Source: a virus
Direction: 5' to 3' (one strand)
DNA length: 64,000 nucleotides
Virus record (IMG/VR): IMGVR_UViG_3300037423_000600
Coordinates: 41,102 to 105,101 of that record
A program made the translations under genes and the position numbers. The first letter of the stretch is position 1, and each line of letters starts with the position of its first letter. Below, in pieces: positions 2 to 49,454 of the stretch. The notes under the pieces were generated by a model. It worked only from the letters and a program-made list of their open reading frames with translations. It made no database searches and had not been told where the DNA came from.

Positions 2-1330
2 CTGCTGGCGAAGATGATTCCGGATATGTACGAATTGAAGATGTATGCTAAAGGGTTCTGGGTGGGGATTTTTGCTCCTTCTAATGAGCAGGCGTATACG
101 GCGTTTACGCGGGTGCGGGAGAAAATACGGCACGGGAATGCGAAGGCGATTATGAATGACCCGGAGATTGATACGGATTTTGAGAATGAGAAAGGGAACC
201 CGATGCTGTTGACGAATGGGTCGTTGTGTCGGATGCAGTCGGCGGCGAAGCAATCCCAGATTGAGTCGAAGTCCTATCACATGGTACTGATTGACGAATG
301 TCAGGATGTCGATAATACGAAAATCAAGAAATCGATTCACCCGATGTTGGCGGCGTATAACGGACTCATTATTAAAATCGGGACCTCGAATACGAAGAAG
401 TCGGACTTCTATGATGCGATACGGCGGAATATCCGGCAGGAGCAGAATTACGGGGCGAAGCAGAATCACTTCCAATATGACTATAAGACGGTGCAGAAAT
501 ACAATCCAAAATATAAGGCTTACATAGAGAAAGAGATTACGCGGCTTGGGTTTGATTCGGACGAATTTCGGATGGCGTATCGGCTCCACTTCATTCTGGA
601 CCGGGGGATGTTTATTACGCAGGAGGATTTTGATGATATCCTAGTCTCTCCGGTGTTGAAGCACAAGACCGAGGAAATGTCGATGCCGTGTGCGGTCGGG
701 ATTGACGTAGCGAAGAGTGGGGACTCAACGGTGGTGACGGTTTTAGGGGTCGATTGGAGCAACAAGTATAAGAATGAGGAAACCGGGGAAGAAATCCCGA
801 TGAAGTATGTGCTGAACTGGCTGGAGTTACAGGATGAGAAGCACGAGGCGCAGTTCTGGCAAATTGTGGATTTCCTTAAAAACTATAACGTCCATACGAT
901 CTTCGTAGATTCGACGGGGATGGGGGACCCGGTGGCGGACCGTTTTGCGCATTACTATTCCGGTCAGTGTCACGTCGAAGGGTACCAGTTTACCCGGCCG
1001 TCGAAATCGACCATGTGGAAGTCGTTGAAACAGGAGATTGACGGGAACCGCCTAAAGGTGCCGGGCCATCCCCGGGCGCAACGGTTACGGCCCTTTATGA
1101 AATTCCGGTCGCAAATGCTCGACTTGGAGAAGGATTACGTGGGGCAATACATGGTCTGTCAGCATCCGGATGTCAAAGGGGCACACGATGACTATTGCGA
1201 CTCTTTAGGGCTGGCGAATTTGGCGGCGATGTCGAACTTTATGCCGGAAGTCGAGGAACATGACAGTCCATTTTATCCGCATAGCCGGACCTCGGTGGAG
1301 GAAAAACTGTTCGGGCGACGGAGGGCGTAG
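2..1330 (+). CDS. terL: Terminase large subunit (5'-truncated)
   Basis: Walker B VLIDECQD; RuvC-like nuclease motifs GIDVAKSGDSTV, VDSTGMGD, HDDYCDSL; frame is open to the window edge; lies upstream of portal. Confidence 0.93.
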   Translation: MLAKMIPDMYELKMYAKGFWVGIFAPSNEQAYTAFTRVREKIRHGNAKAIMNDPEIDTDFENEKGNPMLLTNGSLCRMQSAAKQSQIESKSYHMVLIDECQDVDNTKIKKSIHPMLAAYNGLIIKIGTSNTKKSDFYDAIRRNIRQEQNYGAKQNHFQYDYKTVQKYNPKYKAYIEKEITRLGFDSDEFRMAYRLHFILDRGMFITQEDFDDILVSPVLKHKTEEMSMPCAVGIDVAKSGDSTVVTVLGVDWSNKYKNEETGEEIPMKYVLNWLELQDEKHEAQFWQIVDFLKNYNVHTIFVDSTGMGDPVADRFAHYYSGQCHVEGYQFTRPSKSTMWKSLKQEIDGNRLKVPGHPRAQRLRPFMKFRSQMLDLEKDYVGQYMVCQHPDVKGAHDDYCDSLGLANLAAMSNFMPEVEEHDSPFYPHSRTSVEEKLFGRRRA

Positions 1331-1333
1331 GCT

Positions 1334-1519
1334 ATGGGAATCTGGATAGGGCGGGGATGTCCATTTACGAACTGCATCCATAATACCGGGAAGGATGAAG
1401 GGCTGGCTCCAAGTAAACGGAAGCGGTGCCGGAAGCGGAAACCTCGGATGTTAAATGAGGATGACGATAAGAAACGGTACTGTCTGGATGAAGTGGATTA
1501 CCGGGATTTTAATAAGTAG
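1334..1519 (+). CDS. Small Cys-rich hypothetical protein
   Basis: Starts 3 nt after the terminase stop; C-x4-C plus two further Cys. Confidence 0.5.
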   Translation: MGIWIGRGCPFTNCIHNTGKDEGLAPSKRKRCRKRKPRMLNEDDDKKRYCLDEVDYRDFNK

Positions 1520-1566
1520 GAATCACCCACCCTTAAACGTGGATATAATGGGAAGGAGGAAAGGGG

Positions 1567-1776
1567 ATGTATACGGTGGCTTATATGATTACAGGAATCG
1601 GCGCGTTTGGTATTACGCTTTTGGCTATCCTTCTCGGAATATTAAACTCGGGTACTGCGTTCCTTCTGGTATCGGCGGCGGGGCTTATATTCGGGCTCGG
1701 CGGGGCATTGGCGGCGGCCTCCGGTTCGGCTTTAGCCATATTTATTTTAGCAATTCTTATGGCTGTGTTCGTATAA
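1567..1776 (+). CDS. Small membrane protein
   Basis: RBS GGAGG; 69 aa, almost wholly hydrophobic. Confidence 0.7.
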   Translation: MYTVAYMITGIGAFGITLLAILLGILNSGTAFLLVSAAGLIFGLGGALAAASGSALAIFILAILMAVFV

Positions 1777-1782
1777 GTTTGG

Positions 1783-1864
1783 TTGTGATTTCCATATCCT
1801 CATGTTATATTGTGGACAGGCACAGGTATTCTACTCCCAAGGGTGGATGACTTGTGTCTTTTTA
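1783..1864 (+). promoter_or_regulatory. SigA-like promoter followed directly by a terminator hairpin
   Basis: TTGTGA-17-TATATT with TG extension, then GGCACAGG..CTTGTGTC stem and T tract. Confidence 0.45.
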
Positions 1865-1884
1865 TGTATAAAGGAGGGGTTACT

Positions 1885-2139
1885 ATGCGAAATGCTACAT
1901 TAACCGTGAGCGGTACAGTTGTAGGGTTGACGGGGATTCCGGCCAACGTTTCTAAAGCGTTGATTTCTACGGAGTCCGCAGACATTCGGTATTGGGTGGA
2001 CGGTTCGGACCCGGATACAACACACGGCCATTTGATTTCCGCCGGGAGTGCGTTTGAACTGGAAACCAAAGGCGAGGTTCTTAATTTCCGGGCGATTGCG
2101 GTAAGTGGTTCGGCCACTCTGCAAGTCTCCTATGCGTAA
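1885..2139 (+). CDS. Hypothetical beta-rich protein
   Basis: RBS AAGGAGG before ATG at 1885. Confidence 0.7.
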   Translation: MRNATLTVSGTVVGLTGIPANVSKALISTESADIRYWVDGSDPDTTHGHLISAGSAFELETKGEVLNFRAIAVSGSATLQVSYA

Positions 2140-2151
2140 GGAGGGATTCGG

Positions 2152-2805
2152 ATGCGTATTCTTCGTTCGGGAGGCTCCGGCGGTACGGCTTCTAAACCTT
2201 TAGAGGGTGTGAAGATTTTCTTTTGTGGGGATAGCATCACGGCAGGGACCAATGCCACGAAACCTTATCATCAATGGGTAGCGGAAGAAACCGGGGCTAC
2301 GGTGAAGTTTAATGGCTCCGGCGGCTCCGGCTATTGGACAGGCGACCCTTTGTATAATCGTTATACGGAATTTGTGTGGCAACGAGATTCGGCGGACGCG
2401 GATATCATTATTCTTTTTATGGGTACGAATGATTGGAGGTACCCGGACCCATTTAATCTTGGGGCCCTTGGGGATACGACTGTATCTACCTTTTATGGGG
2501 CGGTGGATGATGCCTTTAGTAAATTGGTTGCGAAGTATCCTTTCAAAAAGGTTGGGGTAATTACGCCGCTCCCTAGTGTAAATGCGTGGAATAACGCCCA
2601 CGGAGAACTAAAGCAAATTTCTGATGCTCTAATAGATGTTTCCGGTAAGTATTCGTTCCCTTCCTTGGACCTTTACCGTTCATCCAATCTCCATGTGTCG
2701 GATACATCCTTTATATCTACCTATATGGAGGACGGTTTACACATTAATGATTTGGGACACAAATTAATTACCCCGCCGATTACATCATTCGTCCTATCTA
2801 TTTAA
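2152..2805 (+). CDS. SGNH/GDSL hydrolase
   Basis: GDSIT, GTND and DGLH blocks. Confidence 0.9.
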   Translation: MRILRSGGSGGTASKPLEGVKIFFCGDSITAGTNATKPYHQWVAEETGATVKFNGSGGSGYWTGDPLYNRYTEFVWQRDSADADIIILFMGTNDWRYPDPFNLGALGDTTVSTFYGAVDDAFSKLVAKYPFKKVGVITPLPSVNAWNNAHGELKQISDALIDVSGKYSFPSLDLYRSSNLHVSDTSFISTYMEDGLHINDLGHKLITPPITSFVLSI

Positions 2806-2823
2806 AAATACTAGGTAAAAGTA

Positions 2824-2958
2824 TTGTATAAAAAGGAAGGACATGTTATTATGGTTATGAAGTACCTTTAACACTTATAACACATAATGCTCTCCTTCCT
2901 ATACACAGATCATACGAGGCACATTGATAACGCATAGTCGCTATCAGTGTGCCTTTTT
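2824..2958 (+). ncRNA. Candidate ~100-nt sRNA with anti-Shine-Dalgarno tract
   Basis: TTGTAT-17-TATTAT promoter; CTCTCCTTCCT tract; AGGCACATTGATA/TATCAGTGTGCCT terminator with T tract; no ORF. Confidence 0.55.
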
Positions 2959-3197
2959 CTGTGTTCGGCGGGCATTAAATAAACTGAAAGGGCGTGTTCT
3001 CCATGGCAGTTAACTCCACTAGCGGCGGTCGCTTGGGCGGCGGTGCTGGAAACAGCATCGGCAAACACTACACAAAGTCGGCTTCTGATGTACCGGGTGC
3101 TATGAAGTCGAACTTCTCCACAGGTCAAGGTATGGCAACCTCTCGCCAGCATCCGACCAACAAAAACCCTGATAACTCCAAGCACACTTCCTAATAA

Positions 3198-3488: not shown

Positions 3489-5009
3489 ATGGCAGACCCG
3501 TATGTATCAGGGCTGAATGTCACCGAGACTACGGCTGTTTCAGGAAACCCCTACTCTCTCCAAATGGGTATCTCGTCCGAAGAACTAAAGCGCGTCAATC
3601 GGGAACTTCTTTACTGGAAGTTTTACAAGGGCATTCAATGGTCGTATAAACGGCCGGAGGGTGAACCGCAAAACACCATCAACTATTCCGCCCGCTTTGT
3701 GGACAAGGGTGTGGCTTTCCTTGCGGGGAAAGGCTTCACCATTAATGTTGAGAAAGGCGCGGAGGAAATTGTAAAGAAGCCTTTAGACGAAGTTTGGGAT
3801 GATAACCAGCGCGAATTGCTGTTCCTTGAAGCGGCTCAGGCCGGAGGGGTATCCGGAAATTCGTGGGTGAAGATTGTTGTCGAAGAGTACGATGAGGGTA
3901 AGCAACCTGTGATGGCAGACTTATACCCAAACGGACGAGTTCGGCTTTTACTTCTGCCCGGCCATGCATGTTTCCCAGAGTGGGACCCCCACGATAAGGA
4001 CCGTCTGGTAAAAATGAAAATCATCTATCCGATTGAGGTTAAGGACCTGAACGGCCGGATGGTGACGCATTGGTTCCGAGAAGAAATCGACGCGGATGAG
4101 ATTGTTCAGTTCCTTGATGACGAAGAAGTGGAACGGCGGCCGAATGACCTTAAGGAAATCCCGGTAGTCCGAATCAAGAACTTGGTTCTGGCTAACGAGT
4201 CTTTAGGGAAATCGGACCTTCATGACATCCTTCCTTTGCAGAAGGAGTTTAATGAAAAAACGACTGACGTTTCGGACATCATCAACTACCATGCCGCACC
4301 AATTACGCTGATTTTCGGCGCAAAGTCGAACAATCTGTCGAAAGGCGCGAATAAGGTATGGGGCGGGCTTCCTAAAGACGCGAAGGTCGAAAACTTGGAA
4401 CTGAAATCGGACTTGGCTTCTTCGATGAACTACATTGACCTGATTAAGAAGGCCCTGTTTGAAATCGGTAATATGCCACACGATGCTTTCGGTTCGGAGA
4501 CGAACGTTTCCAATACCTCCGGCGTGGCCCTTCATATTAAGAACCAACCCCTGATGGACATTACGAACATGAAACGTAAGACCTATGGGGAAGGGATTGA
4601 GCAGATTAACCGGATTATCATTCGGTACTTGTATCTGTATGGCCTCAACGGATTCGACAAGGCGAAATTCGATGCCTTAACTCCCCGGCAACGATGGGTG
4701 TACAGCACAGACTTCCCGAACCCGCTTCCGAAAGACGAGCTTATCCAGATGCAACTTATCGCTCAGAAGATTACTCTCCAACTCATGACTCGGATTGATG
4801 CACTCAAGGAATTGGGTGAACATGATGCGGTTACGAAGCTGGACGAGATTAAGAAGGAATTTATCGAGTGGCAGGATATGATGTTCGCTACGGCGGCGAA
4901 GTACGAAACCAACTCGAATGGAAATTCCACGCTTAAGCCGAAGCCTGCGGGTAAAACCAACGTGGGCGGCATAGTCCCGAAGTTTGAACAGGCAAACGGA
5001 GGCGCGTAA
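3489..5009 (+). CDS. Portal protein (SPP1 gp6-like)
   Basis: 506 aa; GKSDL..I..LQ.EFN and SGVAL motifs; position between terminase and head genes. Confidence 0.9.
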   Translation: MADPYVSGLNVTETTAVSGNPYSLQMGISSEELKRVNRELLYWKFYKGIQWSYKRPEGEPQNTINYSARFVDKGVAFLAGKGFTINVEKGAEEIVKKPLDEVWDDNQRELLFLEAAQAGGVSGNSWVKIVVEEYDEGKQPVMADLYPNGRVRLLLLPGHACFPEWDPHDKDRLVKMKIIYPIEVKDLNGRMVTHWFREEIDADEIVQFLDDEEVERRPNDLKEIPVVRIKNLVLANESLGKSDLHDILPLQKEFNEKTTDVSDIINYHAAPITLIFGAKSNNLSKGANKVWGGLPKDAKVENLELKSDLASSMNYIDLIKKALFEIGNMPHDAFGSETNVSNTSGVALHIKNQPLMDITNMKRKTYGEGIEQINRIIIRYLYLYGLNGFDKAKFDALTPRQRWVYSTDFPNPLPKDELIQMQLIAQKITLQLMTRIDALKELGEHDAVTKLDEIKKEFIEWQDMMFATAAKYETNSNGNSTLKPKPAGKTNVGGIVPKFEQANGGA

Positions 5010-5010
5010 G

Positions 5011-5763
5011 ATGGACAACCCTATGGCCCATTACATCCGGCAAGTAGTCTCGGCTTACATGAAGCTTCTTTCACAGTACGGGGACAGGGCGATTTTACCG
5101 CTAAAGAATGTGGAGCGGGTGACGGCCTTTAATACAGGATTCCTCACCGTGCATTACACGAAGTTGGCTAAGGAATTGGGTGACAAAACCCGGTCGTTTA
5201 TCGTTGAGGCGGTGGATGAAGTCATTCAGGCAACCATCAACCACTACAACGAACTCCACCGGAAGGCGGGGTATGAGCCTTTAGACGGAAAAGCCAAGGA
5301 CAAGCTTTGGGGTAGAATCCGAAAAGATTTTCTCCTTGCAAAGTTCAAAAGGCGGACGCTGGATGCGCGGGTGGACAATGCAACTATCCGGTTAATGGCA
5401 AATATCCTTCCCATCATTCAAACCTACGCCACGGCCTCGACAGACCACGACAGGGCTATTGCTACCATGGTGGATTACTTCACAGGAACCCACCCCATCC
5501 CGGGCGGGACGGCGGCAAGGTGGAACGGAAGGCTCTTAACTTCCGAACTCTTTAGGGCCTACCAATTCACGGCCAAACAAGTGCTGATGGAGTTAAAAGT
5601 CCCTAAGGTGAAATGGGTAAATACAGACCGACACACAGAAGAAAACATTACTGATGAATACGCCGCAACTACATACACCCCCAGACAACTCCCGCGTTAC
5701 CCATACCCTTGCAATGATTCATTCTTTGTACCCATTTATAAGGAGGAACTGGACAATGCTTAA
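5011..5763 (+). CDS. Head morphogenesis / minor head protein (MuF-like)
   Basis: Follows portal; RLLTSELFRAY and YPYPCN resemble degenerate MuF motifs. Confidence 0.6.
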   Translation: MDNPMAHYIRQVVSAYMKLLSQYGDRAILPLKNVERVTAFNTGFLTVHYTKLAKELGDKTRSFIVEAVDEVIQATINHYNELHRKAGYEPLDGKAKDKLWGRIRKDFLLAKFKRRTLDARVDNATIRLMANILPIIQTYATASTDHDRAIATMVDYFTGTHPIPGGTAARWNGRLLTSELFRAYQFTAKQVLMELKVPKVKWVNTDRHTEENITDEYAATTYTPRQLPRYPYPCNDSFFVPIYKEELDNA

Positions 5764-37644: not shown

Positions 37645-37868
37645 CCATCATCGACGTTATCGTGCAGGGCACCGTCTGGACCTTTGTTATTCTTGCCGGG
37701 TTATTCTCTAAACCCATTTGCTACGCTATCCGGGTTACCGCCCGCCATGAGCGGAAGAAAAAGAAAGCCCAAATCCGGGCGGCTTTAGCGGAACAACGGA
37801 AGGCGGAAAAAGCCGAACTCAAGGCACAAAAACAATACCAAAAACAACTACGAAAAGGGGCGTGTTAA
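37641..37868 (+). CDS. Membrane-anchored basic coiled-coil protein
   Basis: N-terminal TM segment, K/R-rich tail. Confidence 0.65.
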   Translation: MTIIDVIVQGTVWTFVILAGLFSKPICYAIRVTARHERKKKKAQIRAALAEQRKAEKAELKAQKQYQKQLRKGAC

Positions 37869-37870
37869 TT

Positions 37871-38065
37871 ATGGCGAAAAACCAAAAAGCAGTTCCTACT
37901 CAACAGGTGAATCAGGTATTGGACCAAATGAAATATGAAATTGCCAGTGAACTTGGCATCCAAACAGGGGCAGACCAAACGGCCCGTAATAACGGTCGTG
38001 TCGGCGGGCAGATGACAAAAAGGCTGATTCAAATTGCTGAATCTACTATCGCTGGCGGCCGATAA
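37871..38065 (+). CDS. Alpha/beta-type small acid-soluble spore protein (SASP)
   Basis: LDQMKYEIASELG, G.VGGQMTKRLIQIAE. Confidence 0.95.
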   Translation: MAKNQKAVPTQQVNQVLDQMKYEIASELGIQTGADQTARNNGRVGGQMTKRLIQIAESTIAGGR

Positions 38066-38732: not shown

Positions 38733-38804
38733 TTATCATCAGCGGCCCCAAGCCGCACTTAGTCACCGGGATGATAATAGGGTATGGGACAGGGAGGTAG
38801 GAAG

Positions 38805-39020
38805 ATGATAACTGCATCAATAGGAACGGCTTTTTATATCGGCGGCGTGGGTATCATTGGGGCCTTAATTAGTTTGGTGGTTAAGGCTATGGGAAATCCG
38901 GCATTAGCTACTCTCATCGACACGGTGGCTTTGATTGCTATTTTATTCGCGGCCGGGTCCGTATTTATGGAGTTCTTTGATTATCTTCGACATATCGGTT
39001 ACGAGTATAATGTACTCTGA
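38805..39020 (+). CDS. SpoIIIAC/AD-like two-helix membrane protein
   Basis: AFYIGGVGIIGALISLVVKAMG...ATLI resembles recalled SpoIIIAC pattern IF.IAGVGI..A.L..IL..MG...A. Confidence 0.6.
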   Translation: MITASIGTAFYIGGVGIIGALISLVVKAMGNPALATLIDTVALIAILFAAGSVFMEFFDYLRHIGYEYNVL

Positions 39021-39052: not shown

Positions 39053-40453
39053 ATGGTTCTAGGGGCTACCGCTATCGCGGCGGTTGCAGGCAAGTTGATT
39101 CTAAAAGGTGCGCTCGATATGGCGGGTATGTCGTTGATGGCTGGAGCGGGTGCAGGTATATGGAAGATGTCCCGCCGCCCGCCGGAGGTTGTTCAAGTGT
39201 TGATGCATGGTGGAGTGTATCCGGTGGGATTGAAGAAGTCCCCGGTGACGTTCTATGAGCGGGATACGGTGACGGATACAGATGGAAAGCAACACGAAAT
39301 CTTTACTTACAAGATGGAGATTCCTTTAGGGAAATCGCTGGCGGATTTTAAGACCCGGCTCCCGGCCCTTGAGGATAAGTTTAATTGCGAAGTCAAGATG
39401 TGGCTGGAGAACGGGTTGGCCTGCATGAAGATGATTATGAAACCCCTCCCGGACAGATTGGAGTTTAATGAATCGATGTACGAAGCCCTCCGGAAACACG
39501 AGTGCGGGGTTATCCTTGGGGACAGCCGGAACGGGCTCCGTATCATCGACCTTGCCAAACCTTCCACCTTTAGTATGCTTATCGGCGGGGTGGCGGGCGG
39601 AGGAAAAAGTAATCTCCTGAATGTAATCATATGTGGGACGGCGTGTGCTTATGCGCCGTGGGATGTTCAATTTTACCTTGTGGATATGAAGGATGGTGTT
39701 GAATTTGCTCCTTACGAAAATCTACCCCATGTTCAGTCAATCATTGACGACCGAGGGAATCGTAAACGTATTATCGACAACGTGGACGATTGTTCAAGTA
39801 TGCTCCGAAGTCTTGCTGATGCCATCCGCATCCGAAACCAGCTTTTTAAGAGTGCCGGAGTACGAAACATTAGCGAGTATCGGGGCCTTGGCTATGAACT
39901 CCCGCATATCATTGTCATCGCAGACGAATTTGCAGACTTCGGAACCCTTGACACCCAGAAACGAAATAAGCTGTTTACCGAGTGGGGATTCCTTACACGT
40001 AAAGGCCGGAGCGCGGGGATACACTGTATCATTTGTACCCAAATCGCTGATGCCGATTCGGTCCCTCGCCAGCTAAAGGGGAACCTGCCTGTAAAGGTCG
40101 GCTTTAGGATGACCAAGCGGGAGAACTCCGAAACCATTTTTGATTCGGATGTCGCTATCCACATCCCGCCGATTCCCGGCCGGGCCGTTCTTAAAATTGG
40201 CGACTACGAAAATATTCAAGTACCTCTACTGGAAACCCAGACGATTGAGGAAAAGATTATTCCTCAACTGGAACCCTATAACGAGATTATGGAAGAGAGG
40301 GAGGCGGAATTACTTGCGGAAGAATCGGACGATGAACAACTACCGGAGGATGCCTTTATCGAATCTCAACAGGTGGAGCCCGAGCCGGAACCGGAACCCG
40401 CACCCAAAAAACGGGGCCGGAGCAAAGCCAACCCGGATATAATCGCTACTTAA
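39053..40453 (+). CDS. FtsK/SpoIIIE-family ATPase
   Basis: GVAGGGKS, VDMK.GVEF, IADEFAD, GRSAGIH....TQ, IPGRA; N-terminal hydrophobic anchor. Confidence 0.93.
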   Translation: MVLGATAIAAVAGKLILKGALDMAGMSLMAGAGAGIWKMSRRPPEVVQVLMHGGVYPVGLKKSPVTFYERDTVTDTDGKQHEIFTYKMEIPLGKSLADFKTRLPALEDKFNCEVKMWLENGLACMKMIMKPLPDRLEFNESMYEALRKHECGVILGDSRNGLRIIDLAKPSTFSMLIGGVAGGGKSNLLNVIICGTACAYAPWDVQFYLVDMKDGVEFAPYENLPHVQSIIDDRGNRKRIIDNVDDCSSMLRSLADAIRIRNQLFKSAGVRNISEYRGLGYELPHIIVIADEFADFGTLDTQKRNKLFTEWGFLTRKGRSAGIHCIICTQIADADSVPRQLKGNLPVKVGFRMTKRENSETIFDSDVAIHIPPIPGRAVLKIGDYENIQVPLLETQTIEEKIIPQLEPYNEIMEEREAELLAEESDDEQLPEDAFIESQQVEPEPEPEPAPKKRGRSKANPDIIAT

Positions 40454-41680: not shown

Positions 41681-41863
41681 GTGAAAGATTGGTACAAGAA
41701 GAGTGGAGCAACTGTGGTATATCAAACCCCGGACGGTACGCTAAAGGCTCAAGTTTGTAAAGACGATGGCGTAGCTTGGGAGTTATATGACCAATTCCAA
41801 AAGGCAGGCTGTAACCCAGTCATTTTCCTAAATGAAAATGGATTACACGAAAGGAGAAAATAA
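41681..41863 (+). CDS. Hypothetical protein
   Basis: RBS GGAGGAGG. Confidence 0.65.
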   Translation: MKDWYKKSGATVVYQTPDGTLKAQVCKDDGVAWELYDQFQKAGCNPVIFLNENGLHERRK

Positions 41864-41864
41864 G

Positions 41865-43700
41865 ATGATGCAAACAGTTGAAGTAAAAAGTAACATTGGC
41901 GGCAGGCTTAAGAAAATCCGCGAAGGCGTGGTGTTCAATTCGGTTACATCTGTCATTGGGGAACTCGGGCAGAACGCCCAACGCGCTCTCAATGCGGCGG
42001 TGGCGGCCGGGAAGAATCCGGATGAAGCTTCTATCTTCCTTGAGTTTTCTCCCGATAAGAAAACCTTTATGGTATCGGATAACGGAATTGGTTGCTCCAA
42101 TCCTCAGGACATTTTGGAACTCGACGTGTCGGGTTTTGGGGTGGGTTTCGGGGAGGGCTTTAGTTCGGTATTCCTTATCGCAGACCGGATTATCATTAAC
42201 TCGAACGATTGGTATATGGATATTGACGTTATCAAGATGATGGAAAATGCGGACTACGAGGTTCAGGTTCACAAGTCGGATGTGGTTAAAGATGGAGGGT
42301 TTACTGTTATCCTTTCCGGTCAGAAGATTGAAGAACATCACGATGAATTACTTCGATTTACGGAAGAAATGGCTTCCCTGCTTCCCTACCCGACTCTTCT
42401 GAACGGTGCTTATGTGAAGAAGAAAGACCTCTCCGACCTTGGCCGCCGGGTCCCGTATAAAATGGATGTCGATAACGAGTTCTTCTCCGGGACTTTAGGA
42501 GCCAACAATAGCTGGGACGATGTTCAGGTGTACTATGAGAACCGCTATGTGTGTGCAATCTGGAAATCTGGCCTGTGCGGAAACATCATGCTAAAGCCTG
42601 GCGCTGTCAATCTCAAAGCCCCGGACCGCCGGGAAATCATTTACGATGCCAAGCGCACCGCTCTTATGGAGAAGCTTCAGGAATGCGGTAAAGTCTTATA
42701 CCAAGGCTTCCTCGAACATGATTCCGATAAGGCCCTCACCGAGTACGCCGAGAAGGTCGAAGCTTTCCTCTCGGTGGATGAGTATATTCCCTTTCTTGAA
42801 ATGGATGTAGCCGGACTCGACTTTGCTAAAATGATGGAGGAGAAACATAAGCCGCATACCGACGAGCAACTTCTCGAAGCGGCCGGACTAGATACTCCGC
42901 ATCAGGAACACTTCGGAGGCAGTTCTCGCACAGTTGGCGGCTCCAAACTCAAGATTGACGGCGGGGATGCCGCAGAAATTGGAACGGCGGAGCCTCGTTT
43001 TGAGAAATCTCGTAAGGAATCCGAGAAGCTTACTAAGGCCAAGACCAAGAAACGCCAGAAGAACTACGGCAAGTTCATTGAGAAGCTGAACAAGATGAAG
43101 GCTCAATTTAAAGTAGTCTGGGCGACCCTGAATGAAATTGATACTTACGAGCCTCAACTCAAAGAACTCAAGGGCTACGGGTTTACGGTACTTACCGCGA
43201 AGAGTAAACTGTACGAATCGGCCTTTAGGCATTTGGATATCCTGCACTTCCAAGAAGTCGAATCCAATGTACAAATTAAGTATTCGTTTAACAACATCGG
43301 CGCGGCGGACGGTAAAGAATCTCGCGTCCTGTGGCTTCTTGAGCGTATTGAAGAAATCCTCAAGACCCCCAACCTTTTTCGGATATGTGATATCGAATGC
43401 CAAGTAGAACATTTCCGGAATAACCAGCTTGTGGCTACGGAAACCCGCGTCTGTCGCTATCGTTATGACAAAGCTTCCGACCGGATTTACATTGACCGCA
43501 AGCATCTGGAACTCCCGTCCTATCGAGTGGAGAAATGGAATGACGGCAAGATTAACTTGAATGACCTCCGGCTGATGCTTAAGAATTTGGAATTTATCGC
43601 GCAGGAGGTCACGAAGTTCAAGAAGAAATCGCATGAAGTCGCTGAGGGCTTCTGGGAATCTAAAGATGCCGTCCTCCGGGAATTGGCGGAGTTATTCTGA
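41865..43700 (+). CDS. GHKL (HATPase_c) ATPase domain protein
   Basis: ELGQNA, VSDNGIG, GFGEGFSS, G.TV motifs. Confidence 0.85.
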   Translation: MMQTVEVKSNIGGRLKKIREGVVFNSVTSVIGELGQNAQRALNAAVAAGKNPDEASIFLEFSPDKKTFMVSDNGIGCSNPQDILELDVSGFGVGFGEGFSSVFLIADRIIINSNDWYMDIDVIKMMENADYEVQVHKSDVVKDGGFTVILSGQKIEEHHDELLRFTEEMASLLPYPTLLNGAYVKKKDLSDLGRRVPYKMDVDNEFFSGTLGANNSWDDVQVYYENRYVCAIWKSGLCGNIMLKPGAVNLKAPDRREIIYDAKRTALMEKLQECGKVLYQGFLEHDSDKALTEYAEKVEAFLSVDEYIPFLEMDVAGLDFAKMMEEKHKPHTDEQLLEAAGLDTPHQEHFGGSSRTVGGSKLKIDGGDAAEIGTAEPRFEKSRKESEKLTKAKTKKRQKNYGKFIEKLNKMKAQFKVVWATLNEIDTYEPQLKELKGYGFTVLTAKSKLYESAFRHLDILHFQEVESNVQIKYSFNNIGAADGKESRVLWLLERIEEILKTPNLFRICDIECQVEHFRNNQLVATETRVCRYRYDKASDRIYIDRKHLELPSYRVEKWNDGKINLNDLRLMLKNLEFIAQEVTKFKKKSHEVAEGFWESKDAVLRELAELF

Positions 43701-44050: not shown

Positions 44051-44081
44051 AAGTTTTTCATCCCACCCCTTCCCGGGTTTA

Positions 44082-44119
44082 CTCGATACCCGGAAGGGGT
44101 TATAATACTTATAACAGGT
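44082..44119 (+). promoter_or_regulatory. Conserved phage promoter
   Basis: CTCG-N15-TATAAT-ACTTATAACAGGT. Confidence 0.8.
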
Positions 44120-44174
44120 CAAACGGTCCCGGCCGGGCGGCCAGTTACATAAAATCAAAGGAGAAGTGATAAGA

Positions 44175-45254
44175 ATGAGTAACATCGTATTCGGCCGATT
44201 CGGTCAAGGAAGCACAGCGGCGGCAGTCAGCCCCAAGAACGGTCCTAAATTGGGAGATATTTTCGCGGAACTCCTCAAGGATTCCGAGAACAAGAAAGAC
44301 CATATCATCGACCCCTACCAAGTCAAGATGGGCGGCAACGGCCGTATTTATCTTCCCGGTATGGATAACTCTAACTCGCTCGGTTTTGAACTTAACGATT
44401 GGTCTTTAGGCCAGCTTGCAGGTAAGACAGAAATCCCCGTCAGATATCTTCGCAAGAGCCCGCCGGAACTTCAAGCGGTCAACGTGAACTACTGGCTCCG
44501 GAATATGACCGATGAGAGTAAGGCGGACTGGATGTTCCGCGTACGTCAGGCAGACATTCAGGATATCCGCAAAGGCGGGCTGGTTCGCGGCATCATGACC
44601 GAGAAATACTCCCCGTTCGATGACCATGAGATTATGGAAATCATCAATAAGATTCTTGGGGTCAAAGATGATTCGTATACGGTCAACTGGTTCTACCGTG
44701 ACGAAACCGGGTTCCATCTTCGTGTCACCTTCGAGGATTTGACCCGGCAGATTGGTCTTACCCGCGACGGCCGCCCAGACTTCCACAAAATCGGCCTTCA
44801 TATCACGAACTCCGAAGTTGGGAAACGGTCCATCCGTATCGTGCCGATGGTATGGCGGCTCGTATGCACGAACGGCCTGATGGGATGGCGGACGGAAGAT
44901 GCCTTTAGCCAACGGCACGTAGGACTTCGCCCGCAGGAAATGTATACCCGTGTGGCGGAGGCCATCGGCAACGGCTTGAAGCTGGGGAAGGAAATGGTGG
45001 ATACACTGGTGGCGGCTAAAGAGTTCGAGATTCCGGACCCGTTCGCAGTCATCGACCAACTCTCCAAGGATTTGAAATATTCCGAAGCTTTGACGGAGAA
45101 GATTAAAGAATCTTGGTTGGAAGATGCACAATCTTCCGTGTTCGGAGTGGTTCAATCTCTTACCCGGGCCGCCCAGCATTTCGAGGCTGACCGCCGCGTA
45201 GAGATTGAGGAAGATGCCGGGAAGTACCTTCGGAAGATGATTACTGCGGTATAA
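44175..45254 (+). CDS. DUF932-like protein
   Basis: ITNSEVG..S, RLVCTNG, H motifs. Confidence 0.8.
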   Translation: MSNIVFGRFGQGSTAAAVSPKNGPKLGDIFAELLKDSENKKDHIIDPYQVKMGGNGRIYLPGMDNSNSLGFELNDWSLGQLAGKTEIPVRYLRKSPPELQAVNVNYWLRNMTDESKADWMFRVRQADIQDIRKGGLVRGIMTEKYSPFDDHEIMEIINKILGVKDDSYTVNWFYRDETGFHLRVTFEDLTRQIGLTRDGRPDFHKIGLHITNSEVGKRSIRIVPMVWRLVCTNGLMGWRTEDAFSQRHVGLRPQEMYTRVAEAIGNGLKLGKEMVDTLVAAKEFEIPDPFAVIDQLSKDLKYSEALTEKIKESWLEDAQSSVFGVVQSLTRAAQHFEADRRVEIEEDAGKYLRKMITAV

Positions 45255-45316
45255 TAAGAAGCGGGCGGGGAGGGGTGTAAGTCCTCTCCCCGTACATACA
45301 TTTAAGGAGGCTATCC

Positions 45317-45727
45317 ATGAGTTATCAAAGTATGCTTACTCTTATCGACAAAAAAGAAACGGAATTACTGGCTCAACTGCATACCGTTCGGGAAATGCGT
45401 AAGCTTGTTCTTCAAGAAAGTACGTCCGATTTGAAAGAACACTTTTTTCAGTTGTACCTTACTAATATCGAGGCTTATTGTAATTGGACCAAGGTTAAAG
45501 ACCCTATTTCCGGCGAGGAATCGGCTCCCGATGAAACCTTGATGCGCGGTATCGAAACCTTGGCGGCTATTTCCGATGTCGCAAAGAAAGCTTTCCGGGA
45601 GGAAATTCTTATCCGGATTAGTTCCTACACCCGGAAGCAAAAACAATTTACCTCCGAAAGTCACGAACGGTTGAGTGAGGCTTTAGATAAATACGTCAAA
45701 AAGCACATAGAAAATACCTTACCTTAA
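45317..45727 (+). CDS. Stand-alone PrkA (YeaG-family) C-terminal fragment
   Basis: YL.NIEAYCN..KVKDPISGEE..PDE.LMR.IE....S..AKKAFREEILIRIS.Y.RK...F...SHERL.EA matches the recalled Bacillus PrkA C-terminus. Confidence 0.85.
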   Translation: MSYQSMLTLIDKKETELLAQLHTVREMRKLVLQESTSDLKEHFFQLYLTNIEAYCNWTKVKDPISGEESAPDETLMRGIETLAAISDVAKKAFREEILIRISSYTRKQKQFTSESHERLSEALDKYVKKHIENTLP

Positions 45728-45740
45728 AGGAGACATCGCT

Positions 45741-46553
45741 ATGACACGTAGAACACGGACCAAAAGTATGAAGTATGGCATTTACGCTCAACCACCCAAA
45801 CATCTAAGGGACCTCGAACCTGATGATGAAGGTTGGAAAGAGGCGTGGGGTGAGGAGTACACCGAATCGTATAAGCTAACAGAGGTCTACTTGGAGCAAA
45901 TCGAATGCAACCGGGAAAGCTATGGCGGCCAACCTATTGAACGGGCTCACTTTCGTCCGGACCCGCGCCGTATGGTCGGCGGCGGAGCGTGGATTATGGT
46001 TACGAATCCGCCCCCTACGAACCCCACTCCCGTAGCCTTTGGTATGTATTGGGCGGTACCCTGTAAAGAAAGTTTGAACTATGATGGATACGATAAGTAC
46101 GGCCGCTATAAGGTGGAAATCCTGATGAAGGACCCGGAGGCGGAAGGTCAGTTTCATGCGGTAGGGTTATTCGTAACCGAATACATGGTGGTCCATGAGG
46201 GGATGTTCCGCGAGTTCATGGAGGAAGGCTACTTTGACCTCCAGCAGTTATCCCTCACTACCGAGGACTCAATGAACGTAGAACTCATTGAACGCGGAAG
46301 GGCTTTAGTCGAAGAGGAACGGGAGTCCATCTGGGCCTTGATGCTAGACGGCTTAACGGAAAGTAAAGCTTGTGAGGAATACTTCTTGGGCCGTCACGTT
46401 GAACGGGATAATGCCCAAATCTGGTACCGCCCTATTCCCGAGTTTGCCGAGTATATGGAGGATACCTTTGGTCGTTTGATTCGTAATCAGGGCAGAGGCT
46501 TTACCGAAGAAAATCATCAGCGCAGAGCGCAAAGAAGGGCGGAGCGGGCATGA
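45741..46553 (+). CDS. Hypothetical protein
   Basis: RBS AAAGGAG. Confidence 0.75.
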   Translation: MTRRTRTKSMKYGIYAQPPKHLRDLEPDDEGWKEAWGEEYTESYKLTEVYLEQIECNRESYGGQPIERAHFRPDPRRMVGGGAWIMVTNPPPTNPTPVAFGMYWAVPCKESLNYDGYDKYGRYKVEILMKDPEAEGQFHAVGLFVTEYMVVHEGMFREFMEEGYFDLQQLSLTTEDSMNVELIERGRALVEEERESIWALMLDGLTESKACEEYFLGRHVERDNAQIWYRPIPEFAEYMEDTFGRLIRNQGRGFTEENHQRRAQRRAERA

Positions 46554-47359
46554 CCAGTATCAACAAGATTGACGAAGAACAATTATTGAAAGCGGTTCGC
46601 CAAATCGCCGGGAACAAGTCCTTTAAGGTGGGGGATGAAGTCACTGGACTCGTCACCGGGATTGAGGACTACGGGGTATTCTTGGAGAACTACGAAACTC
46701 GAATGAACGGTCTTATCCACAAGCGCAATGTATCCAAGACCCGGTTTTACCACGGTATCGAGGACCTTGAGTCCAGCTTTAAAATCGGGGATACCGTGAC
46801 GGCTAAAGTCGTTGAGATTCGGGACGGCAAACTTTCCCTTTGTACTTTCGATTATGAACTTCCGTCTTACGGCATCAACTCGTTAGGTTCGCTTATCAAG
46901 AAGGAAGATATCAAAGTCACCGAGAAGCCTTCGGAATTAGATGAAATTTATGAAGAAATGCGCGGCAAGGTCGGCGGGGTGAGTGCGGTGGCAAAGCCCC
47001 GGGTGGCGGAACTTGTTGGCAAGTACGGATTGGTGAAGTTCTCCATGGCTTTAGCCAAGGCATTAGAAACTTATACCCCCATAGACCAAAGCGTATTGCT
47101 TGTAGAAGAGATTGAAAAACACGCCGGAGTCAACTCACCGAAGCGTACTTTTATCATTGGCTCTCACGTCCGCCAGCGGTGGCAGGAACGCGGAGACGGC
47201 GGGGACCTGCTGGATAGACTCGTTAAGGCCCGCTTGATGTTCGAGGACCTGCATTTGAAACGCCGCCTGTATGGTGACGATGAATACACCTACCCGTGTG
47301 CTATCGGGGAAACCGGGGAAAATCACGTTAAAACCGTAGAACCTTGGGGCCAATACTAA
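46550..47359 (+). CDS. S1 RNA-binding domain protein
   Basis: FKVGDEVTG.VTGIEDYGVF...GLIH...FKIGD.V.AKVVEI. Confidence 0.85.
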   Translation: MTSINKIDEEQLLKAVRQIAGNKSFKVGDEVTGLVTGIEDYGVFLENYETRMNGLIHKRNVSKTRFYHGIEDLESSFKIGDTVTAKVVEIRDGKLSLCTFDYELPSYGINSLGSLIKKEDIKVTEKPSELDEIYEEMRGKVGGVSAVAKPRVAELVGKYGLVKFSMALAKALETYTPIDQSVLLVEEIEKHAGVNSPKRTFIIGSHVRQRWQERGDGGDLLDRLVKARLMFEDLHLKRRLYGDDEYTYPCAIGETGENHVKTVEPWGQY

Positions 47360-47400
47360 AGCGTCAAAAGGAGGGCCAAAAGCCTTCCTTTTCTTCTTAT

Positions 47401-48370: not shown

Positions 48371-49056
48371 GTAAAATTGACTTGGGAGTTCACTATGCTA
48401 TAACCACGTTGCGTAAGACCGTTGACACCTTATGGGTGGACAAAGAACAAGTTCGTTCCAACCCCGCCGCCAACTTCGAGTATGTGAGGGAGAAACATAA
48501 CATTATTGCTCAGGACCCGGTGAGTCTCGATACGGTTTTAGGCCAGCGTATTAAGGAGTTGGAAAAAGCACTCAACCTATTTTCCATCTTCGGCGGCTAC
48601 GTAGTAGAGGGTGCGGGCCCGGGGGAACAGATATTTACTACCAAGGAGGACCTCGACAAATATTTTGAGTCTTTAGAGGACCTTAGTGATATTGGCGAGT
48701 ATACGGTTTACCCGCTATTCAACGCCCGGTATGGTATCGAAGTGGAACGGGAATACGGGCGGGACGATATCACAATCAGTAGTCGTCATTCCTCCACGGA
48801 GGAGGAAAAGTACGACCTCTTTTGGACTAGAGAAGGCCGGGACACCCAAGAAAACCGCGACCTATCCGAGCGTGAGCTCCAAGATGAAATCGCGGAACTC
48901 CTTTCGGACGGCATCTGTCACGAAGATATTTGGGTGGAAAAGAAGATTACGCAATCCATCGGCTTTAGGATTGATGGGGAACCTGTGGTTCGCGTAACTT
49001 ATACGGAAATTCCGGCGGAGCCTAAAACCGCAACCGAGGAGGTAGACAAGTTTTGA
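48367..49056 (+). CDS. Acidic hypothetical protein
   Basis: ATGA overlap. Confidence 0.7.
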   Translation: MSKIDLGVHYAITTLRKTVDTLWVDKEQVRSNPAANFEYVREKHNIIAQDPVSLDTVLGQRIKELEKALNLFSIFGGYVVEGAGPGEQIFTTKEDLDKYFESLEDLSDIGEYTVYPLFNARYGIEVEREYGRDDITISSRHSSTEEEKYDLFWTREGRDTQENRDLSERELQDEIAELLSDGICHEDIWVEKKITQSIGFRIDGEPVVRVTYTEIPAEPKTATEEVDKF

Positions 49057-49454
49057 ATCGGCCTTTAGCAGTAGGAGACAAAATCTTCGTTAAGCCTGTA
49101 GGAAACAACGCCCGCGGAGGAAATTCAAAAGTTGAAGAATGGGAAGTGAAAGTTGTCGGCCGTAAGTATATTACGGCCGGACGGCCGGAGGAAACCGTTA
49201 GGTGGAGCGTTAAATTCTACCGCTGGGATGCTCCCGACTTTCCACTTCGTCAAGTAACCGAGTATTCACCTGACTGGCAAGTTTATTACGACCTTCAGCA
49301 CATCATGGATGAGCAGGAATACGCTACACTCCTCCGCGAAATTCGTTCCGCCATTTCCCCGGGCGGCGGGTACAGTAAACCTAGCCTTACTCTCAAGCAA
49401 CTTCGGTGCATAAAGCACATTATTGATGTAGGCGACAGCTTCTATCTTTCATAA
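49053..49454 (+). CDS. SH3-like beta-barrel hypothetical protein
   Basis: VGDKIFV...VKVVGRKYI. Confidence 0.65.
   Translation: MNRPLAVGDKIFVKPVGNNARGGNSKVEEWEVKVVGRKYITAGRPEETVRWSVKFYRWDAPDFPLRQVTEYSPDWQVYYDLQHIMDEQEYATLLREIRSAISPGGGYSKPSLTLKQLRCIKHIIDVGDSFYLS

What the first reader, a model, noticed from the sequence alone, without database searches (positions are those of the whole stretch)
45317..45727. Phage-encoded stand-alone fragment of the host sporulation protein PrkA
Seen: 136-aa ORF with its own RBS, an unrelated helical N-terminus, then about 85 aa (NIEAYCN...PDETLMRGIE...AKKAFREEILIRISSY...SHERLSEAL). Known (from recall): this closely matches the C-terminal part of Bacillus PrkA (YeaG-family AAA+ protein, about 630 aa, SigE-controlled, needed for normal sporulation and functionally linked to YhbH/SpoVR). 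The ATPase domain is absent. Inference: a captured domain acting as a dominant-negative subunit or partner decoy. It lies in an operon behind an early-type promoter, consistent with blocking or retiming sporulation.
Basis: partly seen in the sequence, partly recalled or inferred. Interest (0 to 1): 0.85.

Follow-up and report, generated by a model that had tools for sequence, protein, structure and literature searches.

The report
Phage-borne mini-PrkA: excised host sub-domain
A soil phage of a spore-forming bacterium carries a small, selection-maintained gene made only of one helical sub-domain of the host starvation and sporulation protein PrkA, most likely a molecular mimic that interferes with that host pathway, though binding has not been shown.

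Summary
ORF 45317-45727 (136 aa, AAGGAGG ribosome-binding site) matches the Pfam PrkA C-terminal domain (E=1.4e-24). It is 67-69% identical to Paenibacillus PrkA over 83 aa.

Two corrections apply. The N-terminal helix is not unrelated. It is the diverged counterpart of PrkA helix 451-480. The piece is also internal: PrkA 451-577 of 631, five consecutive secondary-structure elements. The AAA+ ATPase and the last three helices are absent.

The gene sits in a complete 105-kb myovirus from soil. That phage also encodes an alpha/beta SASP, a SpoIIIAC-like protein and a SpoIIIE-like ATPase.

The protein belongs to a small family of about ten members (127-160 aa) with shared boundaries, found in otherwise unrelated Paenibacillaceae phages and prophages. 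Synonymous sites are saturated, yet 11 of 16 superfamily-conserved residues are kept, so it is not a decaying remnant.

Two related phages also carry a truncated YhbH, the partner of PrkA.

The decoy or dominant-negative reading is plausible but untested. The single complex prediction gave no verdict.

The scan noted the same kind of gene once before on other DNA (e1-5686120). I found no published description.

It is a new variant of phage-borne sporulation genes. Interest 0.6.

The parts
45317..45727 (+). mini-PrkA coding sequence (136 aa). It corresponds to PrkA helix 451-480, helix 484-503, a beta-hairpin, helix 521-531, helix 535-554 and helix 565-577.
   Evidence: ORF list. Pfam PF06798 E=1.4e-24. 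BLASTP to Paenibacillus PrkA. AF2 model with pLDDT 89.9, compared with the full-length PrkA model.
45304..45310 (+). Ribosome-binding site AAGGAGG, 6 nt upstream of the ATG
   Evidence: Read directly from the sequence.
45267..45291 (+). GC-rich hairpin between the DUF932 gene and mini-PrkA (GGGGAGGGG, 7-nt loop, CCTCTCCCC). It has 9 pairs including one G-T and no T-run after it. Possibly an RNA processing or stability element rather than a terminator.
   Evidence: Read directly from the sequence. It was not listed among the terminator-like sites and was not folded.
44078..44106 (+). Best sigma-70-like promoter match of the region (TTTACT, 17 nt, TATAAT; 10 of 12). It lies 60 nt upstream of the DUF932 gene and is the candidate start of the transcription unit.
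   Evidence: A consensus match only; the number of sites in the region is not above the shuffles.
44166..45254 (+). Upstream co-oriented gene, DUF932 / phrog_1362 (362 aa)
45741..46553 (+). Downstream gene, 13 nt after the mini-PrkA stop (270 aa). No family match.
   Evidence: No similarity to YhbH or SpoVR.
46550..47359 (+). S1 RNA-binding-domain protein (269 aa). Its start overlaps the previous stop.
   Evidence: PF00575, E=2.4e-9.
47366..47392 (+). Terminator-like hairpin that would close the four-gene unit

Best explanation
The gene encodes a cleanly excised, autonomously folding helical sub-domain of a Paenibacillaceae-type PrkA, corresponding to residues ~451-577 of 631. PrkA is the AAA+ protein that works with YhbH and SpoVR in sporulation and, as YeaG/SpdA in E. 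coli, drives starvation-induced bulk proteolysis. The phage copy has no ATPase domain. It keeps the charged, superfamily-invariant motifs of this sub-domain (Y..EAY, PDE.LMR.IE, KKAFREE). The helix that in PrkA packs against the rest of the protein has drifted. Most likely (inferred, not shown) it is made during infection of a starving or sporulating Paenibacillaceae host and acts as a molecular mimic of that PrkA surface. It would titrate whatever normally binds there: a neighbouring PrkA protomer, YhbH/SpoVR, or a substrate or regulator. This would blunt the PrkA-dependent sporulation and starvation-proteolysis programme, keeping the cell productive for the phage. Shown here: identity, boundaries, phage location, family and selection. 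Inferred: binding, and the direction of the effect.
For: Identity and anatomy. The mini protein's H3-34, H36-55, hairpin, H73-82, H87-106 and H117-134 equal PrkA H451-480, H484-503, hairpin 508-517, H521-531, H535-554 and H565-577. Selection: about 10 homologues of 127-160 aa share the same start and, except the 160-aa P0174 with its unrelated tail, the same end. They are only 36-48% identical to the window protein. dS is saturated in nearly all pairs, dN/dS is 0.10-0.14 where defined, and core dN is 0.19-0.43. Of the 16 positions conserved at >=85% across the PrkA/YeaG superfamily in this segment, 11 are >=90% conserved in the mini family. Paenibacillus-specific residues (C503, W505, K539, A540, E543, L546, I547) are also invariant in the mini family. 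Independent mobility: the mini gene is the only gene shared between the window region and the three other loci. The window's capsid protein was not found in the other carriers. Host copy coexists: P. vulneris has a full 632-aa-frame PrkA as well as the prophage mini copy. Pathway focus: two mini-PrkA carriers also encode a truncated YhbH of 263-283 aa, aligning with host YhbH 217-384 at 46% identity. Sporulation theme in this phage: SASP, SpoIIIAC-like and FtsK/SpoIIIE genes lie 5-8 kb upstream. Literature: PrkA ATPase activity is needed for sporulation (PMC9512850; PMC13001217). YeaG drives starvation proteolysis (PMC13684143). YeaG, YeaH and YcgB are tightly cofit (10.1101/072470).
Against: No experiment or computation here shows binding to PrkA, YhbH or SpoVR. 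The role of this sub-domain in PrkA is unknown, and no paper on the solved structure 9xip could be found. The window protein is a divergent member, falling outside the core clade of eight. It has replaced the otherwise invariant IGISEN stretch with AAISDV, so its specificity may differ. The window phage lacks the mini-YhbH seen in two other carriers. Loss of prkA only lowers sporulation efficiency (PMC9512850), so the gain to a phage from blocking it is not obvious. Retention of conserved residues could reflect fold stability alone.
Confidence: 0.45

Rival explanations
1. Adaptor or activator rather than inhibitor. The mini protein docks on the host PrkA-YhbH-SpoVR machinery and switches it on or redirects it. 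One example would be triggering bulk proteolysis to supply amino acids for phage synthesis. Another would be directing it at a host factor through the fast-evolving N-terminal helix.
For: YeaG-dependent proteolysis recycles amino acids for new protein synthesis during starvation (PMC13684143), which a phage could exploit. The N-terminal helix evolves quickly (dN 0.4-1.2), as target-binding regions of adaptors often do. Other phages carry complete PrkA genes or the whole PrkA-DUF444-SpoVR trio, which suggests that having the activity can be useful to a phage.
Against: A fragment without the ATPase cannot supply the activity itself. The N-terminal helix is the structural counterpart of a PrkA helix, not an added module. 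No target is known.
Confidence: 0.2
2. The sub-domain has an intrinsic activity of its own, such as binding a small ligand, polyphosphate or nucleic acid. The phage would use that activity independently of the host PrkA pathway.
For: The conserved motifs are strongly charged (PDE.LMR.IE, KKAFREE). The gene sits beside RNA- and DNA-handling genes: an S1 protein here, and RNA ligase, nucleases and RNR in the other phages. The model is a compact, confident stand-alone fold.
Against: No fold or family match to any ligand- or nucleic-acid-binding domain was found. Retention of host-lineage-specific residues and co-carriage of a truncated YhbH point to the host pathway. No neighbour is conserved with it.
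Confidence: 0.15
3. In the lineage that has both, the mini-PrkA and mini-YhbH of the phage bind each other and form a minimal phage-owned complex. The window's gene would be an orphan of that system.
For: The two genes co-occur on the same contig in G016 and in the P. vulneris prophage.
Against: Those two carriers are related to each other, so this counts as one lineage. The window phage and the 30%-complete G017 show no mini-YhbH. The two genes lie about 20 kb or more apart, not in one operon.
Confidence: 0.1
4. A non-functional remnant of a captured host gene.
For: It is short and lacks the catalytic domain. Only about ten members are known.
Against: The frame is intact and has a strong RBS. 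Boundaries are conserved in homologues below 50% identity, synonymous sites are saturated, and dN/dS is about 0.1. Invariant functional motifs are retained. The gene is present in unrelated phages.
Confidence: 0.03

Closest known systems
Bacterial PrkA / YeaG (SpdA): AAA+ ATPase with a PrkA C-terminal domain, partner of YhbH/YeaH and SpoVR/YcgB
   Same: The phage protein is homologous to PrkA residues ~451-577, at 67-69% identity to Paenibacillus PrkA over the core. It has the same secondary-structure elements and the same superfamily-invariant residues.
   Different: It has no AAA_PrkA ATPase domain. It lacks the first ~76 and the last ~40 profile positions of PF06798. It is 136 aa instead of 631 and evolves several-fold faster.
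Full-length PrkA genes of phages: Thermus phages phiYS40, TMA and MN1 ('serine kinase', PHROG 22605), and the PrkA-DUF444-SpoVR trio of the 595-kb uncultured phage LR756511.1
   Same: These are phage-borne members of the same protein family.
   Different: They are complete enzymes of 619-694 aa with the AAA+ domain, so they presumably supply the activity. The window gene is a sub-domain only and cannot do so.
Phage-encoded homologues of sporulation genes: sigma factors, spo0A, SASP and spoIIIE in phages of endospore formers (Schwartz et al., PMC9429907 and PMC10294663)
   Same: A phage of a spore former carries a gene derived from a host sporulation gene. The same genome also has SASP, SpoIIIAC-like and SpoIIIE-like genes.
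   Different: prkA is not named in the main text or the held supplements of PMC10294663. Here the captured unit is one sub-domain trimmed at secondary-structure boundaries, not a whole gene.
MicroProteins, meaning dominant-negative single-domain derivatives of multidomain proteins, and phage mimic or decoy proteins (from general knowledge, not tested here)
   Same: It is a small protein made of one interaction-type domain of a larger target and lacks the catalytic part.
   Different: Binding to the parent protein or its partners has not been demonstrated for mini-PrkA.

Membership tests
PrkA C-terminal domain (Pfam PF06798) | HMM match above the curated gathering score | tested here: met
   87.6 bits against a cut-off of 25, E=1.4e-24. 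88.7 bits in the genome search.
PrkA C-terminal domain (Pfam PF06798) | Coverage of the whole 255-position domain | tested here: not met
   Only profile positions 113-214 match in the window protein. The homologues cover 77-206.
PrkA/YeaG family protein (functional enzyme) | N-terminal AAA_PrkA ATPase domain (PF08298) with a Walker A motif, needed for function in sporulation (PMC9512850) | tested here: not met
   The 136-aa protein has no such domain. No second PrkA-like match exists anywhere in the 105-kb genome.
PrkA/YeaG family protein (functional enzyme) | Superfamily-conserved residues of the segment 455-585 | tested here: met
   11 of 16 positions conserved at >=85% in 34 diverse PrkAs are >=90% conserved in the 10 mini proteins.
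Phage-encoded sporulation-gene homologue (auxiliary / host-takeover gene) | Encoded in a bona fide phage genome | tested here: met
   The virus record is 100% complete with direct terminal repeats. Terminase, portal, major head, sheath and tape measure are present.
Phage-encoded sporulation-gene homologue (auxiliary / host-takeover gene) | Host is an endospore former that has the full gene | tested here: inconclusive
   The host is not known, since the phage comes from a soil metagenome. The nearest PrkAs are from Paenibacillus and Cohnella. The phage carries SASP and SpoIIIAC-like genes. A prophage carrier, P. vulneris, has both copies.
Phage-encoded sporulation-gene homologue (auxiliary / host-takeover gene) | Expression alters sporulation or dormancy | not testable with these tools
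   Needs an experiment.
Dominant-negative microprotein / decoy | Derived from one domain of a multidomain target and lacking its catalytic domain | tested here: met
Dominant-negative microprotein / decoy | Binds the parent protein or its partner | not testable with these tools
   The only computational attempt gave no verdict (see Tried and rejected). This needs pull-down, two-hybrid, or mapping on the solved structure.
Dominant-negative microprotein / decoy | Inhibits the parent's function when expressed | not testable with these tools
   Needs an experiment.

The most novel reading that the evidence does not exclude
Phages of Paenibacillaceae disarm the conserved PrkA-YhbH-SpoVR starvation and sporulation system with trimmed copies of its own components: mini-PrkA, and in one lineage also mini-YhbH. 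The conserved face of mini-PrkA would then mark the so far unknown partner-binding surface of PrkA/YeaG. This would be a new anti-dormancy strategy and a natural probe for a protein whose mechanism (kinase, protease or other) is still disputed.
Probability: 0.35. Interest if true: 0.8.

Novelty: new variant of a known kind. Interest (0 to 1): 0.6.

Why it matters
PrkA/YeaG is widespread and highly expressed in starvation and sporulation. Its mechanism is unresolved: it has been called a kinase, a Lon-like protease, an ATPase without either activity, and most recently the driver of starvation-induced bulk proteolysis. A phage has cut out one 127-residue sub-domain and kept its invariant charged motifs under selection. 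That tells experimenters which part of the C-terminal domain carries a transferable function. It also provides a ready-made reagent to test what binds there. Together with the truncated YhbH in related phages, and the SASP, SpoIIIAC and SpoIIIE genes in this one, it extends the list of ways phages may manipulate host dormancy.

Tried and rejected
1. Complex prediction of mini-PrkA (alignment A4) with full-length Paenibacillus PrkA (alignment A3) gave no verdict. The score was 0.00 in both runs and the controls were not run. It counts neither for nor against binding.

2. Fold searches of the mini model found nothing. Foldseek against PDB gave no hit at E<=0.001. VIA-align wide gave a best Z of 4.6, all generic helical matches. 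Those libraries appear not to hold 9xip, which the sequence search finds. No paper describing 9xip was found.

Context therefore came from the search for related loci, the genome search and the fetch from genomes.

4. For sequencing runs, the only holder is one soil-metagenome DNA run, which may be the source. No RNA holder is listed.

5. Metagenome scans: P0174 returned nothing. P0001 returned only host full-length PrkAs. The genome-contig scan was likewise dominated by host PrkAs, apart from L011.

6. NCBIfam, PADLOC and the ESM Atlas gave nothing for the mini protein.

7. P0169 and P0225 were considered as independent captures from other PrkA lineages. I rejected them because they lie on contigs of 958 and 663 bp and are probably gene fragments. 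P0002, P0003 and P0008 are C-terminal fragments of true PrkAs, and P0009 is probably a pseudogene piece.

8. Viral-contig hits L002-L007 and L010 match only query residues 43-125 (56-100 in L010) at 61-67% identity, near contig ends. They look like host PrkA genes at provirus borders. Only L002 was inspected.

9. The 270-aa downstream neighbour was tested as a hidden YhbH or SpoVR piece. It shows no similarity.

10. A family-wide genome survey was not run. Only the 15 genomes of the GTDB genus of P. vulneris were searched, and 1 has the mini copy.

Full report
**1. Observation**

The window is bases 41102-105101 of a 105,101-bp virus record with direct terminal repeats, rated 100% complete. 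ORF 45317..45727 on the + strand encodes 136 aa. It is preceded by AAGGAGG at 45304-45310.

Pfam PF06798 (PrkA C-terminal domain) matches residues 34-135 to profile positions 113-214 of 255. The match scores E=1.4e-24 and 87.6 bits against a cut-off of 25. PHROG 22605, a 619-position full-length PrkA family, matches residues 29-128 to positions 464-563. This is the only PrkA-like sequence in the genome. The overlapping minus-strand ORF (45365..45664) has no support.

**2. What part of PrkA it is**

The nearest full-length proteins are 631-aa PrkAs of Paenibacillus and allies, at 64-69% identity over 83 aa.

- BLASTP places phage residues 43-125 on PrkA 491-573.
- With another Paenibacillus PrkA the alignment extends to residues 10-125 on 463-573.
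- I folded the phage protein (pLDDT 89.9, pTM 0.71) and a full-length Paenibacillus PrkA (pLDDT 89.4, pTM 0.85).
- With an offset of 448 the elements coincide one for one:

| Mini protein | Full-length PrkA |
|---|---|
| H3-34 | H451-480 |
| H36-55 | H484-503 |
| beta-hairpin | hairpin 508-517 |
| H73-82 | H521-531 |
| H87-106 | H535-554 |
| H117-134 | H565-577 |

The protein begins where a PrkA helix begins and ends where another ends. The AAA+ domain, the first part of the C-terminal domain, and the last three helices (580-630) are absent. The module is a cleanly excised sub-domain.

The only solved relative is 9xip/9xiq/9xir ('serine protein kinase', 692 aa), matched at chain residues 545-632. 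No paper on it was found. The fold-search libraries do not seem to contain it.

**3. The phage**

The window encodes terminase, portal, major head protein, tail sheath and tape measure, so the phage is a myovirus. It also encodes replication initiator O-like, DnaC-like, DnaB-like, primase and ligase proteins. The closest cultured relative by capsid protein is Bacillus phage BCD7 at 47% identity. The only sequencing run that holds the region is a soil metagenome.

Three further relatives of host sporulation genes lie 5-8 kb upstream of the mini-PrkA gene.

- An alpha/beta SASP at 37862-38065 (PF00269, E=9e-19).
- A SpoIIIAC/AD-family protein at 38784-39020 (E=1.4e-8).
- An FtsK/SpoIIIE ATPase at 39053-40453 (E=1.7e-25).

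SASP genes are already known in many Bacillus phages.

**4. The transcription unit**

The gene lies between four co-oriented, closely spaced genes:

- DUF932/phrog_1362 at 44166-45254.
- Mini-PrkA.
- A 270-aa protein with no family match at 45741-46553.
- An S1-domain protein at 46550-47359.

The best sigma-A-like match of the region (44078-44106) precedes the first gene. A terminator-like hairpin (47366-47392) follows the last. The number of such sites is not above that of shuffled sequence. The operon is plausible, but the 'early promoter' is not established.

**5. A family**

Searches of 5.8 billion proteins and of 1.84 billion cluster representatives found a small set of short proteins. 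They are P0004, P0005, P0006/P0284, P0010, P0011, P0137, P0138 and P0140, at 127-136 aa. A 160-aa variant, P0174, has an unrelated tail. Apart from that tail, all share the same start and end as the window protein.

They lie on contigs of 2-169 kb and in P. cremeus and P. vulneris assemblies. I inspected three loci.

- L008 is on a 164-kb, ~90%-complete phage record.
- L009 is on a provirus fragment.
- L011 is a prophage-like region of P. vulneris.

In each locus the gene is a free-standing ORF among same-strand phage DNA-metabolism genes: RNA ligase, PD-(D/E)XK nuclease, RecJ, ribonucleotide reductase and NrdI.

P. vulneris also has a normal PrkA in a 632-aa frame. Only 1 of the 15 genomes of its GTDB genus has the mini copy.

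An all-against-all comparison shows the mini gene is the only gene shared between the window region (37-53 kb) and the other three loci. Those three loci share several genes with one another. The window's capsid protein was not found in the other carriers. The gene therefore moves as a single-gene module between unrelated phages.

No cultured phage in the 50,697-record collection has it. Thermus phages have full-length PrkA. A 595-kb uncultured phage has the complete PrkA-DUF444-SpoVR trio.

**6. Evolution**

In a maximum-likelihood tree of the segment, the ten short forms fall on one side of one branch. Support is 63% bootstrap and 98% SH-aLRT, and one origin appears in 59% of bootstrap trees. 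They sit next to the almost invariant Paenibacillus PrkAs.

A single capture from a Paenibacillaceae-type PrkA is compatible with the data but not proven. The window protein and P0174 lie outside a core clade of eight (86/88). Terminal branches of the mini forms are 0.2-1.8 substitutions per site, against 0-0.1 for Paenibacillus PrkA.

Four genes have DNA in hand. For these, synonymous sites are saturated in almost all pairs. Where dS is defined, dN/dS is 0.10-0.14. The core has dN of 0.19-0.43 and the N-terminal helix 0.4-1.2.

I compared 34 diverse PrkAs with the 10 mini proteins. Of the 16 positions in PrkA 455-585 conserved at >=85% across the superfamily, 11 are >=90% conserved in the mini family. 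These are Y495, A501, P519, E521, M524, I527, E528, F541, R542, L567 and A570. The four positions clearly not kept lie in the N-terminal helix, the hairpin loop and the C-terminal end. D520 is kept in 80% of the mini proteins.

Residues typical only of the Paenibacillus lineage (C503, W505, K539, A540, E543, L546, I547) are also invariant in the mini family. This is the pattern expected of a module that keeps the ancestral surface while losing contacts to the rest of PrkA. It rules out neutral decay.

**7. A second truncated pathway component**

The 164-kb carrier G016 encodes a 283-aa protein. Its residues 106-276 match the C-terminal part of DUF444/YhbH (profile 239-413 of 418, E=2.5e-41), including a DSSGSM motif.

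The P. vulneris prophage contig has a 263-aa homologue that is 64% identical, about 22 kb from its mini-PrkA. It aligns with host YhbH residues 217-384 at 46% identity. The host yhbH and spoVR genes are adjacent.

A family of such 251-288-aa proteins exists, several on contigs of 165-175 kb. The window phage has no DUF444 or SpoVR match. The two carriers with both genes are related to each other, so this counts as one lineage. It still shows that phages in this group collect trimmed parts of the PrkA-YhbH-SpoVR module.

**8. Mechanism**

From the literature:

- PrkA is needed for efficient sporulation, and this depends on its Walker A motif. Protease activity was reported for the B. subtilis protein (PMC9512850) but not found for the B. 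anthracis one (PMC13001217).
- E. coli YeaG (renamed SpdA) is required for starvation-induced bulk proteolysis (PMC13684143).
- yeaG, yeaH and ycgB are each other's best cofitness partners in six bacteria (10.1101/072470).

A fragment without the ATPase cannot perform the reaction. What it can do is occupy whatever binds this surface.

My best reading (0.45) is a mimic or decoy that blunts the host programme during infection of starving or sporulating cells. An adaptor or activator role (0.2), an intrinsic ligand-binding role (0.15), a phage-owned mini complex with mini-YhbH (0.1) and a dead remnant (0.03) are the alternatives.

Nothing here demonstrates binding. The function of this sub-domain inside PrkA is unknown.

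**9. Novelty**

Phage-borne sporulation genes are known (PMC9429907, PMC10294663), and full-length phage PrkAs are annotated. prkA is not mentioned in the main text or held supplements of the gut-phage survey. My searches found no paper describing a phage PrkA fragment.

The scan itself noted a homologue on other DNA, e1-5686120, which ends KEAIENSL like P0004.

I class it as a new variant of a known kind. Interest is 0.6, because it offers a direct experimental handle on a conserved protein of disputed mechanism.

Noticed in passing
L186:3107-3955 (-) in the 164-kb phage record G016; L187:1501-2289 (-) in P. vulneris contig C55: Both encode a truncated YhbH ('mini-YhbH', 263-283 aa). It consists of the C-terminal DUF444 part, with a DSSGSM motif, behind an unrelated N-terminus. 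Both phages also carry mini-PrkA. A family of 251-288-aa homologues exists, several on contigs of 165-175 kb.
   Followed up: partly
window 37862-38065, 38784-39020, 39053-40453: The phage encodes an alpha/beta-type SASP (PF00269, E=9e-19), a SpoIIIAC/AD-family two-helix membrane protein (E=1.4e-8) and an FtsK/SpoIIIE ATPase (E=1.7e-25). They lie in one co-oriented cluster 5-8 kb upstream of mini-PrkA.
   Followed up: partly
L104 (LR756511.1, 595-kb uncultured phage) 1007-3091, 3658-4875, 4875-5378: A megaphage encodes a complete PrkA (694 aa, AAA_PrkA plus the PrkA C-terminal domain). It is followed by a DUF444/YhbH protein (405 aa) and a SpoVR-like gene. This is the whole three-gene host module in a phage.
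   Followed up: partly
window 41832-43700: A 622-aa protein has only a weak HATPase_c-like N-terminal match (E=0.06). It has no PHROG or PADLOC family. It sits between the sporulation-like cluster and the DUF932 gene.
   Followed up: no
window 45741-46553: A 270-aa protein starts 13 nt after the mini-PrkA stop. It has no match in Pfam, PHROGs or PADLOC and no similarity to YhbH or SpoVR.
   Followed up: partly
window 45267-45291: A strong GC-rich hairpin (9 pairs) without a T-run lies between the DUF932 stop and the mini-PrkA ribosome-binding site. It may be an RNA processing or stability element (read; not folded).
   Followed up: no
window 49053-49454: A phage ProQ C-terminal-like domain protein (PF24203, E=4e-13) lies just upstream of the replication initiator.
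   Followed up: no
P0174 (160 aa, 10-kb JGI contig): A second architecture of short PrkA-derived protein. It has the same core with the host-like KVKDP loop, as in the window protein, but a shorter N-terminus and an unrelated ~50-aa helical tail. Its context could not be fetched.
   Followed up: partly
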